Shown here piece after piece: positions 5,523-8,412 of a DNA stretch of 39,827 bases. The stretch lies in the UHGV virus genome UHGV-2125590; one strand, given 5' to 3'. A program made the position numbers and the translations under genes. The DNA comes from a virus. Below the pieces are notes generated by a model that saw only the letters and a program-made list of their open reading frames with translations, was not told the DNA's origin and did not search any database. How positions within the stretch are numbered: the stretch's first letter is position 1; each line of letters starts with the position of its first letter.

Positions 5523-6107
5523 TTATTGTTTGCTTTTTTCGTTCTGGTTGATGACAAATTCAATGTAACTTTCGATCTTTGCTTTCTCGGTTTCGGGTAA
5601 CAATGCGTAGCGTGAGCGGTCATAGTTGATAGTCGCAGGGTCGTGCGGGTGAATCAGTAGTTCATATCCGTGACGCCCGAATGCGGATGCAACATTCTCC
5701 AGGGTGGAAATGGAAACGCTGACCTCATTGTTTAACAGGCGGCTGATTGTCACCTGGGCGACGCCGGATGCGCGGTGAAGTTTTCCCTGTGTTGAAAGGT
5801 CGCGGCTTTCGCTCATCCAGCGTTCCAGGTTGTGAGCCGCCAGCTGACCTATATCGCTCGGGCCGACAGGCTGAAAACCCTCCTGAGAAAGCGAACGATC
5901 AATATCAAGCCAGTTACGGGGTTTATTGGCGGCAGCTTCAATTTTTCGTGCAACCTGGTCGCCGATAACCTTCTTGCCAAGAGCCCAGCGGTTTACCAGA
6001 TTTGCCTGAGTTCCAAGTTTTTCTGCCATCCGCGTCTGAACACCATTGAATTCACGGTCGATCAAGTCGTTGAGATTTTGCCTGCGGACGTCCTGGATAC
6101 TTTTCAT
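5523..6107 (-). CDS. CI-like prophage repressor with two HTH regions and no S24 peptidase domain
   Basis: 194 aa; N-terminal HTH (QTRMAEKLGTQANLVNRW) and second XRE-like HTH (ASGVAQVTISRLLNNE); divergent from Cro-like gene; weak RBS, consistent with a PRM-like leaderless arrangement. Confidence 0.65.
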   Translation of the reverse strand: MKSIQDVRRQNLNDLIDREFNGVQTRMAEKLGTQANLVNRWALGKKVIGDQVARKIEAAANKPRNWLDIDRSLSQEGFQPVGPSDIGQLAAHNLERWMSESRDLSTQGKLHRASGVAQVTISRLLNNEVSVSISTLENVASAFGRHGYELLIHPHDPATINYDRSRYALLPETEKAKIESYIEFVINQNEKSKQ

Positions 6108-6261: not shown

Positions 6262-6492
6262 ATGAGCGATAACGGACATTTCGATTTCAAAAAGCACTGG
6301 CTTGCACTTACTCCGGATGAGCGTGAAGCCTTCGCACAGGAAGCCGGAACGACGAGTCACTATATCCAGACTCACTTAACAGGCAAGCGCAAAATGCCAG
6401 GTAAAGTATTGATGAATGGTCTTTTTAAAGCCTGTAAAACAAGACAATGGCTGCGCTCAAAAGCAGAACTGGCATACTTCTTCTACTCATGA
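6262..6492 (+). CDS. Cro/YdaS-like small HTH regulator
   Basis: 76 aa, divergent from the repressor; AFAQEAGTTSHYIQ HTH-like segment. Confidence 0.6.
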   Translation: MSDNGHFDFKKHWLALTPDEREAFAQEAGTTSHYIQTHLTGKRKMPGKVLMNGLFKACKTRQWLRSKAELAYFFYS

Positions 6493-6513: not shown

Positions 6514-6536
6514 AGACCGCCACCCGGCGGTCTTTT
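6514..6536 (+). terminator. putative terminator after the Cro-like gene (tR1-like)
   Basis: AGACCGCC / GGCGGTCT stem followed by TTTT. Confidence 0.4.
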
Positions 6537-6547
6537 CATATCTATTC

Positions 6548-6562
6548 GTACCTCAAAGGTAA
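6548..6562. promoter_or_regulatory. imperfect palindrome copy (GTACC-TCAAA-GGTAA)
   Basis: One mismatch in left arm; between Cro-like gene and next gene. Confidence 0.35.
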
Positions 6563-6640
6563 CAAAAAACCAAATCTGGTTGATCAAATTTTCCAATTGT
6601 GCAAAATAGCCAATATCAATAACAAAAAGGGGCGGAAAAA

Positions 6641-6853
6641 TTGAAGATAGTAACCAGAATGGAGGCCGCAAAAGCCGGGTTAAATCGCTATTTCACAGGA
6701 AAGCGGTGCCGTCACGGCCATCTCTCTGAAAGGTATGTTCTGAACGGAACATGTGTTGAATGTGCAATGAATAGCGCCAACCGCCATCGTAATGAATTTG
6801 CTTGTGCACTAAAGAGTGCAAGAGGGGAAACCTATGGCAAGCAGCTGGATTAA
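6641..6853 (+). CDS. hypothetical small protein with Cys/His cluster (putative zinc-binding)
   Basis: 70 aa from TTG 6641 (AAGGGG 8 nt upstream); CRHGH...CVEC motif; start uncertain (ATG at 6659 lacks an RBS). Confidence 0.4.
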   Translation: MKIVTRMEAAKAGLNRYFTGKRCRHGHLSERYVLNGTCVECAMNSANRHRNEFACALKSARGETYGKQLD

Positions 6854-7664
6854 GGTTGAAGTTATCACTCCTGATAAACCTGAAATTTTTCAGATAGCAG
6901 AAATTCTGGGTATTGATCCAGATGCTGTTCTTGGAAAGCTGGTTCGTATATGGGCATGGGCTGACCAGCAAACAATAGACGGTAACGCTGGCAGCGTTAC
7001 AAAAGGAGTACTTGATAGACTCGCTTTTATTACAGGATTTGCTGACGCCCTCATTAGCGTCGGATGGCTTGCTTATCATGACGGCAAACTAATTCTTCCA
7101 AACTTTGAGCGACACAATGGAGAATCATCGAAAAAACGTGCACTTACGAATAGAAGAGTGGCAGAGCATCGAAAACGAGTAACGCAAAAAGTAACGCCAA
7201 CAGCGTTACAAAAGGAGTTACCAGAGGAAGAGGAAGAGGAAGATATATATAAAACCCCACACATAGCGCACGTGCGCGAGGGTGCTCCGACCAGTGAAGC
7301 GAACGGTATGCCGTTGCAGGTGGCTGAACCTGAATTTCTGGATGGCCTGAGTGAACCCATCGGGAAATTTCCGATGACCGATGGCTGGCATCCGTCGCCG
7401 GATTTTCGACGGCGTGCTGCGCTGTGGGGAACGGCCCTGCCGGAACCGGAATTTACACCTGCTGAACTTGCTGCATTCCGGGATTACTGGATGGCTGAGG
7501 GCAAAGTGTTCACGCAGGTTCAGTGGGAACAAAAATTCGCCAGGCACGTAAATCATATCAGGGGAAAATCAAAAAACGCCGGGAAAAGCGATGAGCTTGA
7601 CTGGAATAACACTGACTGGATAGAAGGGGTGTGGGATGAAATCAACTCCAGAACTTCTCAATGA
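6834..7664 (+). CDS. replication initiator (lambda O position; DnaT-like C-terminal region)
   Basis: ATG 6834 with GAGGGG RBS; acidic linker EEEEEED; contains iteron-like palindromes; immediately upstream of the P-like gene. Confidence 0.6.
   Translation: MASSWIKVEVITPDKPEIFQIAEILGIDPDAVLGKLVRIWAWADQQTIDGNAGSVTKGVLDRLAFITGFADALISVGWLAYHDGKLILPNFERHNGESSKKRALTNRRVAEHRKRVTQKVTPTALQKELPEEEEEEDIYKTPHIAHVREGAPTSEANGMPLQVAEPEFLDGLSEPIGKFPMTDGWHPSPDFRRRAALWGTALPEPEFTPAELAAFRDYWMAEGKVFTQVQWEQKFARHVNHIRGKSKNAGKSDELDWNNTDWIEGVWDEINSRTSQ
6982..7255. repeat. putative replication origin: iteron-like 19-bp palindromes GTAACGC-N5-GCGTTAC plus AT-rich tract
   Basis: Palindromes at 6982-7000 and 7191-7209, extra half-site at 7179-7185, each followed by AAAAGGAGT; GATATATATAAAA at 7241-7253; lies inside the initiator gene as in lambda. 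Confidence 0.45.
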
Positions 7665-8412
7665 GTACGATCGCTTACGTGAGCATGGTGTTGCTGTGCA
7701 TGAAGAGCGGCGTGACAGCAATGGCAAAAAGGAGCAGGTTGCTAGAATTTTCAATGAACTATTTGTCCAGTTACAGGCTGCATTTCCTGCAAGCGTTTCG
7801 ACCATAAGGGAGCAGAACAAACTTAATGAATTCCGTAAGCAATGGATGCTTGCGTTTCTGGAGAATGGGATCACAACAATGGAACAGGTTAACGCTGGTA
7901 TGCGCCACGCCCGCGCCAGTGAATCTCCGTTCTGGCCGTCGCCAGGGCAATTTATCAAGTGGTGTAAAGACAGCAAGATGGTTCTTGGCGTCACCATTGA
8001 CGATGTGATGGCGGAGTTTCACCGGTACAGCAAGGAAAAAAGTTTATATCCTGGTGGTCCCGAAAGATTCCCGTGGCGGCATCCGGTTATGTACTGGGTC
8101 GTATGTGATACCCGCCGTGCAATGTATCAGCGCCAGCTTAGCGAGATTGAGGTTGAGAAACACGCGCGCAGGTTGCTCGATGATTGGGCGAAAAAGGTGG
8201 CTTCCGGACAGCAGATACCCGATCCGGTGATCAGCATACAGGCAAAGCCAGAACCCATGAGTACGCCTCCGGACACAGGGAGAGACGTTTACCACCCGCC
8301 AGGGCGAAGTTTCGGGTGCATGCCTAACGCCGCCACCCTGGGGGGAATAACACCGGCGCAGTGGCTGATGGAGGAATACAGGCGGGGAAAGGCGGCAGGA
8401 TTTATCAAGTAA
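7636..8412 (+). CDS. lambda P-like replication protein (DnaB helicase loader)
   Basis: 258 aa; long collinear match to lambda P as recalled (FPAS...NE...RKQW.LAF.ENGITTMEQVNAGMR...PSPGQF..WC). Confidence 0.85.
   Translation: MKSTPELLNEYDRLREHGVAVHEERRDSNGKKEQVARIFNELFVQLQAAFPASVSTIREQNKLNEFRKQWMLAFLENGITTMEQVNAGMRHARASESPFWPSPGQFIKWCKDSKMVLGVTIDDVMAEFHRYSKEKSLYPGGPERFPWRHPVMYWVVCDTRRAMYQRQLSEIEVEKHARRLLDDWAKKVASGQQIPDPVISIQAKPEPMSTPPDTGRDVYHPPGRSFGCMPNAATLGGITPAQWLMEEYRRGKAAGFIK

What the first reader, a model, noticed from the sequence alone, without database searches (positions are those of the whole stretch)
6982..7255. Iteron-like 19-bp palindromes and AT-rich tract inside the replication initiator gene (candidate ori)
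GTAACGC-N5-GCGTTAC occurs at 6982-7000 and 7191-7209 with an extra GTAACGC half-site at 7179, each followed by AAAAGGAGT, and a GATATATATAAAA tract lies about 30 bp downstream after an acidic EEEEEED linker. Lambda ori likewise lies inside gene O as iterons with internal dyad symmetry next to an AT-rich region.
Basis: partly seen in the sequence, partly recalled or inferred. Interest (0 to 1): 0.45.

Follow-up and report, generated by a model that had tools for sequence, protein, structure and literature searches.

The report
Phage replication origin inside initiator gene
Inside this temperate E. coli phage's replication-initiator gene lies a set of conserved 7-bp sites plus a purine-rich/AT tract; these are almost certainly where the initiator binds its own gene to start DNA replication, as in phage lambda but with a different, uncharacterised DNA-binding domain.

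Summary
GTAACGC-N5-GCGTTAC occurs exactly twice in 39.8 kb (6982-7000, 7191-7209; 0.05 expected). There is an extra half-site at 7179 and a missed degenerate one at 7215.

The palindromes are DNA-level elements, not a duplicated peptide:
- The two copies lie in different reading frames.
- Across about 140 distinct relatives, pal2 occurs in all three frames.
- Synonymous positions in the arms are nearly fixed, while the N5 spacer varies freely.
- Divergent relatives switch every half-site of a locus together (GTCACGC or GTGACGC).
- All 120 viral contigs found by the DNA pattern alone encode the same N-terminal domain.
- Natural swaps of that domain (phiV10, K-12 Rac YdaU) lose the sites; phiV10 carries its own iterons instead.

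The last half-site abuts a conserved polypurine tract, the most purine-rich 40-mer in the window, followed by GATATATATAAAA. The mosaic junction falls at this tract.

C-terminal domain type tracks the downstream helicase loader: DnaT-like with lambda-P-like, Rac-type with DnaC-like.

Best reading: a lambda-style origin embedded in the initiator gene, built on a large N-domain family with no Pfam model. Binding and origin activity are inferred, not shown. It is a new member of a known kind, of moderate interest.

The parts
6834..7664 (+). Replication initiator gene (276 aa). It has a novel N-terminal domain (about aa 1-119), an acidic linker and a DnaT-like C-terminal domain.
   Evidence: The start MASSWIK matches homologues. 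It matches PHROG 2509 'replication initiation protein' at E 1.5e-129. It matches Pfam DnaT PF17948 at aa 179-249, E 6.5e-19, and the N-domain has no Pfam hit. The N-domain family has 7022 representatives at 50% identity with E<=1e-3.
6982..7000 (.). Palindrome 1, GTAACGC-TGGCA-GCGTTAC: a distal initiator-binding dyad. It lies in the codons for G50-N-A-G-S-V-T56, a predicted loop.
   Evidence: Exact match. It is conserved at gene position 149/161 across phyla. Codons are near-fixed: GGT 33/35, AAC 27/28 and GTT 27/34, against 0.34-0.42 for the top codon in other Gly columns. The loop lies between helices 29-49 and 57-64.
7179..7185 (+). Direct half-site GTAACGC, 12 bp upstream of the left arm of palindrome 2.
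   Evidence: Relatives carry 0-3 such direct half-sites at 12-bp phasing.
7191..7209 (.). Palindrome 2, GTAACGC-CAACA-GCGTTAC: the core dyad of the origin-proximal array. It is read as V-T-P-T-A-L-Q, a different frame from palindrome 1.
   Evidence: Exact match. It is conserved at gene position 338-413 in relatives, in three reading frames.
7215..7221 (-). Degenerate fourth half-site GAGTTAC (consensus GCGTTAC), abutting the polypurine tract.
   Evidence: The family consensus AAAAGCGTTACCAGAG is 80-99% conserved per position.
7223..7243 (+). Uninterrupted purine run AGAGGAAGAGGAAGAGGAAGA, part of the conserved element GTTACCAGAG(G)AAGAG... It is a candidate for part of the unwinding element.
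   Evidence: 7208-7247 is the most purine-rich 40-mer in the window. The element is conserved as DNA but read in three frames (PEEEEEE, YQRREEK, TREEKRRE). Mean purine fraction is 0.88 in 128 relatives.
7242..7254 (.). AT tract GATATATATAAAA, a candidate site for duplex opening.
   Evidence: The least-stable 20-mer of the region, 7235-7254, ranks in the top 0.33% of the window. Similar short AT tracts follow the purine run in enterobacterial relatives. Lambda has the analogous AAAAGAAAAAAGAAAAGATTATT after its iterons.
7243..7258 (.). Mosaic (recombination) junction between the N-domain-plus-sites module and the C-terminal domain module.
   Evidence: Homology to BUCT554 ends at 7258 and to the Klebsiella phage at 7243. 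Homology to the Actinobacillus phage and to other DnaT-like genes starts at 7245-7249.
7636..8412 (+). Lambda-P-like helicase loader gene, the presumed partner of the initiator's C-terminal domain.
   Evidence: It matches Pfam Phage_lambda_P at E 1.7e-55 and PHROG 109 'P-like helicase loader'. A DnaT-like C-domain co-occurs with a P-like downstream gene in 21 of 26 distinct loci.

Best explanation
The GTAACGC half-sites are the recognition sites of the initiator's own N-terminal domain. There are two 19-bp dyads, one direct half-site and one degenerate half-site. Together with the adjacent polypurine/AT tract they form the phage's replication origin, embedded in the initiator gene as ori-lambda is embedded in gene O.

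Proposed mechanism:
1. Dimers of the initiator bind the dyads. The origin-proximal array at 7179-7221 holds four half-sites at 12-bp phasing.
2. The distal dyad at 6982-7000 may be brought in by DNA looping.
3. The resulting nucleoprotein complex, on supercoiled and transcribed DNA, opens the duplex at the flanking purine-run/AT tract (7223-7254).
4. The DnaT-like C-terminal domain engages the lambda-P-like loader (7636-8412), and possibly the single strands, to bring in host DnaB.

Shown here:
- The sites are under DNA-level selection.
- They are tied exclusively to this N-domain.
- They co-vary with the N-domain.
- The C-domain type tracks the loader type.

Inferred, not shown: physical binding, the point of unwinding, and origin activity.
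For: 1. Statistics: two exact dyads against 0.05 expected.
2. Frame independence: pal1 and pal2 use different frames in the window. Across about 140 distinct relatives, pal2 is found in frames 0, 1 and 2 (43, 82 and 6 instances). Another 49 dyads lie within 150 bp upstream of the gene (those inspected are intergenic).
3. Synonymous-site constraint inside the arms: GGT 0.94, AAC 0.96 and GTT 0.79. Other conserved 4-fold columns show 0.26-0.6. The N5 spacer is free.
4. Enrichment: 182 GTAACGC in 24.8 kb around the gene's 5' half, against 15 in 99.7 kb of flanks.
5. Concerted change: L116 and L119 use GTCACGC at 7 of 7-8 half-sites, including lone unpaired ones. L115 uses GTGACGC.
6. Exclusive association: 120 of 120 viral contigs found by the DNA pattern alone encode the N-domain. 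The neighbouring genes are present in only 29 of 144 loci.
7. Natural swap controls: phiV10 gp43 and K-12 YdaU keep the C-domain but have other N-domains and no GTAACGC sites. phiV10 instead has six CCCAAAAACGGG iterons at the equivalent linker position.
8. Modularity as in lambda O: a DnaT-like C-domain pairs with a P-like loader in 21 of 26 loci. A Rac-type C-domain pairs with a DnaC-like loader in 31 of 51.
9. A conserved polypurine/AT element directly abuts the last half-site and is read in three frames. This parallels lambda's iterons plus purine-rich AT tract (PMC7466680).
10. The N-domain model has helices and a beta-hairpin. Its weak structural neighbours are winged-helix and replisome-organiser domains.
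Against: - There is no experimental evidence of binding or origin function for any member of this N-domain family. The one characterised relative by name, Rac oriJ in K-12, turned out to have a different N-domain.
- The AT tract is only 13 bp. Over 40-60 bp the region is about 40-45% GC, and intergenic regions nearby are less stable.
- The site layout differs from lambda's four tandem iterons. One dyad sits about 200 bp away, and many relatives have a further dyad just upstream of the start codon. That layout would also suit autoregulation.
- The charged linker would be purine-rich to some degree for coding reasons alone.
Confidence: 0.72

Rival explanations
1. The dyads are autoregulatory operators only. 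The initiator, or another regulator, binds within and just upstream of its own gene to repress or roadblock transcription or translation. The true origin lies elsewhere.
For: In 49 instances among 144 distinct relatives, a third dyad sits 31-42 bp upstream of the start codon, close to the ribosome-binding site. Dyads about 190-230 bp apart could form repression loops. Dyad symmetry is typical of operators.
Against: - The window itself has no upstream copy.
- The main array abuts a conserved polypurine/AT element that an operator does not need.
- Module swaps replace sites and N-domain together at the linker, exactly as for lambda-type origins. phiV10 has classical iterons at the same place.
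- No other repeat cluster in the replication module offers an alternative origin.
- Autoregulation and origin function are not mutually exclusive.
Confidence: 0.12
2. The palindromes act as hairpins in RNA or single-stranded DNA, for example as a minus-strand terminator, an attenuator, an RNase site or a priming signal, rather than as duplex binding sites.
For: Both arms change together in variants, which preserves pairing. The scan calls minus-strand terminator-like sites at both dyads. The ssDNA fold of 7165-7265 has z = -5.3.
Against: - The stem sequence is essentially invariant across phyla except at one position, rather than merely complementary.
- Lone unpaired half-sites are equally conserved and switch in concert with the dyads.
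- Only pal2 has a T-run, and that comes from the AAAAA spacer.
- There is no Rfam match.
- Intergenic and intragenic copies are identical in sequence.
Confidence: 0.05
3. The sites are bound by a different factor, either a host protein or another phage protein, and merely co-travel with the initiator gene.
For: Binding by the initiator has not been shown. The 7-mer is identical in very different hosts, which a conserved host factor could also explain.
Against: - The upstream 70-aa ORF, the cII-like gene and the repressor are present in only 29 of 144 loci.
- Hosts span Enterobacterales, Verrucomicrobia, Planctomycetes and Acidobacteria.
- The sites disappear when only the N-domain is swapped.
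- No DnaA boxes lie nearby.
Confidence: 0.06
4. The repeats are a by-product of a duplicated peptide motif (NAxSVT), or are chance.
For: In most relatives both dyads translate to NAxSVT in the same frame.
Against: - In the window the second copy is in another frame (VTPTALQ).
- Three frames are used across the family, and intergenic copies exist.
- Synonymous sites are fixed.
- Chance expectation is 0.05.
Confidence: 0.01

Closest known systems
Phage lambda ori-lambda within gene O (O/P replication module), including Stx-phage variants
   Same: - The origin lies inside the initiator gene at the boundary between the N-domain and the linker.
- The binding sites are 18-19 bp with internal dyad symmetry.
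- A purine-rich AT tract flanks them on the downstream side.
- The N-domain and its sites are exchanged as one module, while the C-domain pairs with the helicase loader. Here the next gene is lambda-P-like.
(PMC7466680)
   Different: - The N-domain is not Phage_rep_O and has no Pfam family.
- The sites are 7-bp half-sites used both as dyads and as direct repeats at 12-bp phasing, not four tandem 18-mers.
- One dyad lies about 200 bp away inside the N-domain coding region, and many relatives have another upstream of the gene.
- The C-domain is DnaT-like.
- The flanking element is a (GAGGAA)n polypurine run plus only 13 bp of AT.
phiV10/epsilon15-type replication module (gp43, Uetakevirus)
   Same: Same genome type and synteny. 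It has the same DnaT-like C-domain and P-like loader, and repeats at the same linker position.
   Different: phiV10 has an HTH_36 N-domain with six lambda-like CCCAAAAACGGG iterons and three AACCAGTCATAT repeats. It has no GTAACGC sites. The window carries a swapped N-domain-plus-site module.
Rac prophage YdaU/YdaV and oriJ
   Same: 'Rac-type' YdaU of many E. coli strains (for example strain 442/2 and phage 666R9) has the same N-domain. It has three GTAACGC dyads, at -32, +161 and +368. NCBI names these 'phage replication initiator YdaU family protein'. Rac is reported to have an active origin, oriJ (PMC3945230).
   Different: K-12 MG1655 YdaU, the strain in which oriJ was studied, has a DUF1376 N-domain. 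It lacks the sites and shares only the C-domain. The oriJ experiments therefore do not validate these sites. The loader there is DnaC-like, not P-like.
Bacillus phage SPP1 G38P (replisome organiser) and oriL inside gene 38
   Same: From established knowledge, the initiator binds repeats inside its own gene next to an AT-rich stretch. Replisome-organiser N-domains appear among the weak structural neighbours.
   Different: There is no sequence-family match. Structural similarity is below significance (E about 0.1-0.5). The repeat type and the loader system differ.
Iteron-type plasmid origins (RepA, pi and TrfA winged-helix initiators)
   Same: Repeated initiator-binding sites next to an unwinding element. 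The initiator is possibly winged-helix. Dispersed extra sites could act in control.
   Different: There are no tandem 17-22 bp direct iterons and no DnaA boxes near the sites. The sites lie inside the initiator ORF, and there is no Rep_3 or RepA family match.

Membership tests
Lambda-type phage origin embedded in the initiator gene | Repeated sites with internal dyad symmetry lie inside the initiator ORF, at the boundary between the N-domain and the linker. | tested here: met
   Dyads lie at 6982-7000 and 7191-7209, and the array 7179-7221 starts at aa 116. The predicted last helix of the N-domain ends at aa 119.
Lambda-type phage origin embedded in the initiator gene | The sites are specific to, and exchanged together with, the initiator's N-terminal domain. 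| tested here: met
   120 of 120 pattern-found loci encode the N-domain. The sites are absent where the N-domain is swapped. The variant half-site changes in concert.
Lambda-type phage origin embedded in the initiator gene | An AT-rich, strand-asymmetric unwinding element lies directly beside the sites. | tested here: inconclusive
   A 21-nt purine run plus a 13-bp AT tract directly follows the last half-site. It is the most purine-rich 40-mer of the window, but its 20-mer instability ranks only in the top 0.33% and the region is about 40-45% GC at 40-60 bp scale. The element is conserved as DNA in three frames.
Lambda-type phage origin embedded in the initiator gene | The C-terminal domain is matched to a cognate helicase loader encoded immediately downstream. 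| tested here: met
   The P-like gene lies at 7636-8412. C-domain type correlates with loader type across 144 distinct loci.
Lambda-type phage origin embedded in the initiator gene | The initiator binds the sites, and the fragment supports initiator-dependent replication. | not testable with these tools
   This needs EMSA or footprinting and an origin-plasmid assay. No published data were found for this N-domain family.
Lambda O protein family (Pfam Phage_rep_O) | Sequence match of the N-terminal DNA-binding domain to the family model. | tested here: not met
   No Pfam hit for aa 1-127 even at E<=10. No PDB relative by profile search.
Lambda ori site architecture | Four or more tandem 18-19 bp iterons at about 20-24 bp spacing. 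| tested here: not met
   There are only two full dyads, 209 bp apart, plus two single half-sites at 12-bp phasing.
DnaT (primosomal protein I) | Full-length equivalog match. The domain alone matches Pfam DnaT. | tested here: not met
   NCBIfam PRK02854 scores 93 bits against a cut-off of 201, and only aa 172-252 match. The Pfam DnaT domain is met at E 6.5e-19. This is a DnaT-like domain, not DnaT.
DUF1376 / K-12 YdaU N-domain | Sequence or profile similarity of the N-domain. | tested here: not met
   hhalign probability is 0.3%. No Pfam DUF1376 hit. There are only faint structural neighbours, at E>1.
Iteron plasmid origins | Tandem direct iterons plus DnaA boxes plus a Rep winged-helix initiator family. 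| tested here: not met
   No tandem direct 17-22-mers. No DnaA box within about 230 bp of the sites, and the count across the window is not above chance. No Rep family match.
Intrinsic terminators | A GC-rich hairpin followed by a U-run, on a transcribed strand. | tested here: inconclusive
   The scan flags both dyads on the minus strand, but only pal2 has a T-run, which comes from the AAAAA spacer. Sequence rather than pairing is conserved, and lone half-sites are conserved too.

The most novel reading that the evidence does not exclude
The module may be more than a lambda look-alike. An ancient, cross-phylum replication cassette keeps one invariant 7-bp recognition word (GT-N-ACGC) from Enterobacterales to Planctomycetes. 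The conserved element GTTACCAGAG(G)AAGAG..., read in all three frames, could be a specific structural or loading element, for example an H-DNA-prone or strand-specific ssDNA site used for opening, rather than a generic AT-rich unwinding element. The dispersed dyads, about 200 bp apart and upstream of the gene, could provide looping or handcuffing-type control of initiation and of initiator expression. That form of control is known for plasmid iterons but not for phage origins.
Probability: 0.2. Interest if true: 0.6.

Novelty: new member of a known kind. Interest (0 to 1): 0.42.

Why it matters
- It gives a precise, testable origin for a replication module that is common and unannotated at the DNA level. 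991 of 5426 complete E. coli genomes hold a related segment. The N-domain family has about 7000 clusters at 50% identity and no Pfam model.
- It assigns a function, origin recognition of GTAACGC, to an uncharacterised domain.
- It shows overlapping codes clearly. The DNA sites dictate codon choice, one residue identity (N51 becomes H or D when the site changes) and 4-aa loop insertions.
- It explains why recombination junctions in these phages fall at the linker.
- Practically, it predicts replicon incompatibility and specificity groups among prophages, and offers a compact origin-plus-initiator cassette for vectors.

Tried and rejected
- I hoped to use Rac oriJ as experimental support. The key paper (Potrykus 2000) is not held. 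K-12 YdaU has a different N-domain without the sites, so I dropped this line.
- Rfam found no RNA family.
- There are no DnaA boxes near the sites, and the count across the window is not above chance.
- Literature searches for the motif, for YdaU/YdaV replication and for Uetakevirus origins found no description of this origin.
- Helical phasing of the about 190-230 bp dyad-to-dyad distances showed no consistent phase, so I make no claim.
- The minus-strand terminator reading was rejected, because the T-run is only the inter-half-site spacer and pal1 has none.
- The duplicated-peptide explanation was rejected.

Full report
CONTEXT. The window is a temperate Uetakevirus-like E. coli phage genome. 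It is 98-100% identical in this region to phages HEMP4, vB_EcoP_ZX5 and TL-2011b. It is mosaic relative to phiV10.

Around the finding lie an early-right operon and its repressor:
- a repressor on the minus strand (5523-6107);
- a cII-like gene (6262-6492);
- a terminator-like hairpin (6514-6533);
- a 70-aa Cys-rich ORF (6641-6853);
- the initiator gene (6834-7664);
- a lambda-P-like helicase loader (7636-8412).

The initiator is 276 aa. It has an N-terminal domain with no Pfam or NCBIfam model, an acidic linker and a DnaT-like C-terminal domain (PF17948, E 6.5e-19). PHROGs calls the whole protein a replication initiation protein.

OBSERVATION. GTAACGC-N5-GCGTTAC, with up to 2 mismatches allowed, matches only 6982-7000 and 7191-7209 in 39.8 kb. 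The expectation is 0.05.

I add four points:
- A fourth, 1-mismatch half-site (GAGTTAC, 7215-7221) gives four half-sites at exact 12-bp spacing in the order -> -> <- <-.
- The two dyads are read in different frames (GNAGSVT versus VTPTALQ).
- An uninterrupted 21-nt purine run (7223-7243) directly follows the last half-site. This makes 7208-7247 the most purine-rich 40-mer in the window.
- The AT tract (7242-7254) is short and only moderately unstable. Its least-stable 20-mer ranks in the top 0.33% of the window, and local intergenic regions are less stable.

ARE THE REPEATS DNA ELEMENTS OR A PEPTIDE REPEAT? I collected relatives of the N-domain from three sources:
- annotated phages;
- species-representative genomes, giving 36 loci from Enterobacterales, Akkermansia and other Verrucomicrobia, Planctomycetes, Ignavibacteria and Acidobacteria;
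- viral contigs.

Nearly all keep the same dyad at the same two gene positions, about 149/161 and about 338-413. The arms are identical and the 5-bp spacer varies freely.

Five tests separate DNA-level from protein-level constraint.
1. Reading frame. Across 144 distinct initiator genes, pal2 occurs in frames 0, 1 and 2 (43, 82 and 6 instances). A further 49 dyads lie within 150 bp upstream of the start codon (at -31 to -42 and intergenic in the loci inspected).
2. Synonymous sites. At conserved residues inside the pal1 arms, one codon dominates: GGT 33/35, AAC 27/28 and GTT 27/34. Other conserved Gly or Val columns have top-codon fractions of 0.34-0.53, although locus GC content ranges from 38 to 65%.
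3. Enrichment. There are 182 GTAACGC in the 24.8 kb around the gene's 5' halves, against 15 in 99.7 kb of flanks.
4. Concerted change. In divergent loci the only variable position of the 7-mer switches in all half-sites of a locus. This includes unpaired half-sites.
   - L116 and L119 have 7 copies of GTCACGC.
   - L115 has 5 copies of GTGACGC.
   - The right-arm change is a synonymous Val codon change.
   - It exactly complements a non-synonymous N-to-H or N-to-D change in the left arm.
5. Insertions. Many relatives carry a 12-nt (4-aa) insertion in the predicted loop that creates an additional direct half-site.

The 'duplicated protein motif' explanation is therefore rejected.

WHO BINDS? 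A scan of the viral-contig collection used the DNA pattern alone: two dyads 170-200 bp apart. It returned 120 loci, and all 120 encode the N-domain across the sites. The neighbouring genes (the 70-aa ORF, the cII-like gene and the repressor) occur in only 29 of 144 loci.

Two natural domain swaps serve as controls.
- phiV10 gp43 keeps the DnaT-like C-domain and the P-like loader, but has an HTH_36 N-domain. It has no GTAACGC sites. Instead it has six CCCAAAAACGGG iterons at the equivalent linker position.
- K-12 Rac YdaU shares its C-domain (83% aa identity) with the 'Rac 442/2' YdaU. It has a DUF1376 N-domain and no sites.

The only constant partner of the sites is thus the N-domain in whose gene they lie. 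Its AlphaFold model (pLDDT 75.6) has helices, a beta-hairpin and a long basic helix. Its weak structural neighbours are winged-helix and replisome-organiser-type domains. This is suggestive but not conclusive.

WHY AN ORIGIN? The architecture mirrors ori-lambda as annotated in NC_001416. There, dyad-symmetric iterons lie inside gene O and are followed by the purine-rich AT stretch AAAAGAAAAAAGAAAAGATTATT (PMC7466680).

Here the last half-site is fused to the conserved element AAAAGCGTTACCAGAG(G)AAGAG(G)AAGAG... Each position of its core is 80-99% conserved. Mean purine fraction is 0.88 over the next 30 nt in 128 relatives.

That element is read in three different frames, as PEEEEEE, YQRREEK and TREEKRRE. 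It uses AGA for Arg even in a 65%-GC locus. It is therefore also a DNA-level element.

The mosaic junction between modules falls at 7243-7258, right at the AT tract.

The C-terminal domain type tracks the downstream loader. DnaT-like pairs with P-like in 21 of 26 loci. Rac-type pairs with DnaC-like in 31 of 51. This is the lambda O logic: the N-domain recognises the origin and the C-domain recruits the loader.

MECHANISM.
- Shown: selection, specificity and modularity of the sites.
- Inferred: initiator dimers bind the dyads and the flanking half-sites. The complex opens the adjacent purine-run/AT tract. The DnaT-like domain and the P-like protein deliver host DnaB.
- The distal dyad, and the upstream dyad in relatives, may add looping or autoregulation.

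RIVALS.
- An operator-only role is the main alternative. It is supported by the upstream copies near the RBS in relatives. It does not explain the conserved flanking element or the module logic, and it could coexist with origin function.
- Hairpin or terminator readings fit the arm covariation and the minus-strand terminator calls. They fail on the invariant arm sequence and on the conserved, co-varying lone half-sites. There is no Rfam match.
- A foreign binding factor is unlikely given the host range and the swap controls.
- No DnaA boxes lie nearby.

KNOWN OR NEW? The kind is well known: an iteron-type phage origin inside the initiator gene. I found no description of this origin or of the GTAACGC sites in the searchable literature, including the paper on the near-identical phage ZX5.

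NCBI already names some members 'phage replication initiator YdaU family protein'. Rac's oriJ is reported as an active origin (PMC3945230). However, K-12 Rac carries a different N-domain, so this is not validation.

The N-domain family is large: 7022 cluster representatives at E<=1e-3. Related segments occur in 991 of 5426 complete E. coli genomes.

I file it as a new member of a known kind, with some distinctive features:
- half-site grammar, with the 7-mer used both as dyads and as direct repeats;
- dispersed dyads;
- a polypurine element conserved across three reading frames;
- cross-phylum invariance of the recognition word.

VERDICT. Confidence in the full origin model is 0.72. Confidence that the sites are functional protein-binding elements tied to the N-domain is higher. 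Interest is moderate.

Noticed in passing
L001 3112-3301 (phiV10 gp43 gene, NC_007804 33677-33866): phiV10's own initiator carries six lambda-like iterons (core CCCAAAAACGGG) followed by three tandem AACCAGTCATAT 12-mers in the linker. This is a likely phiV10 origin, and it is not annotated in the record.
   Followed up: partly
L244 2120-2977 (E. coli K-12 MG1655 ydaU): K-12 Rac YdaU has a DUF1376 N-domain. It shares only the C-terminal domain (83% aa) with the 'Rac' YdaU of other strains (L004). 'YdaU' therefore covers two different origin-recognition modules, and oriJ data cannot be transferred between them.
   Followed up: partly
window 6641-6853 (+): A 70-aa Cys/His-rich ORF (PHROG 1081, unknown function) overlaps the initiator start by 20 nt. 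It is present in only 29 of 144 related loci.
   Followed up: partly
window 7258-7277: A perfect 12-bp palindrome GCGCACGTGCGC (7266-7277) lies just after the AT tract and mosaic junction. The minus-strand scan also calls a terminator-like hairpin here.
   Followed up: no
window 6514-6533 (+): A strong intrinsic-terminator-like hairpin (8-bp stem, 6 GC pairs, T-run) lies between the cII-like gene and the replication genes. Its position is analogous to lambda tR1. phiV10 annotates a terminator at the same place.
   Followed up: no
window 6834-7000 and relatives (gene codon 51): Residue 51 of the initiator (N, or H or D in variants) appears to be dictated by the embedded DNA site: AAC, CAC and GAC sit within GT-N-ACGC. 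This is a case of a binding site fixing an amino acid in the protein that presumably binds it.
   Followed up: partly
L087-L122 (genome contigs): The same N-domain and the same 7-bp word occur in prophage-like regions of Akkermansia, Planctomycetes, Ignavibacteria and Acidobacteria MAGs. The aa identity is 42-62%. This is an unusually wide host span for one recognition specificity.
   Followed up: partly
window 6540-6640: A 28-33% GC intergenic stretch lies upstream of the 70-aa ORF. It is less stable than the proposed unwinding tract and carries no GTAACGC sites. It is probably a promoter or regulatory region.
   Followed up: no
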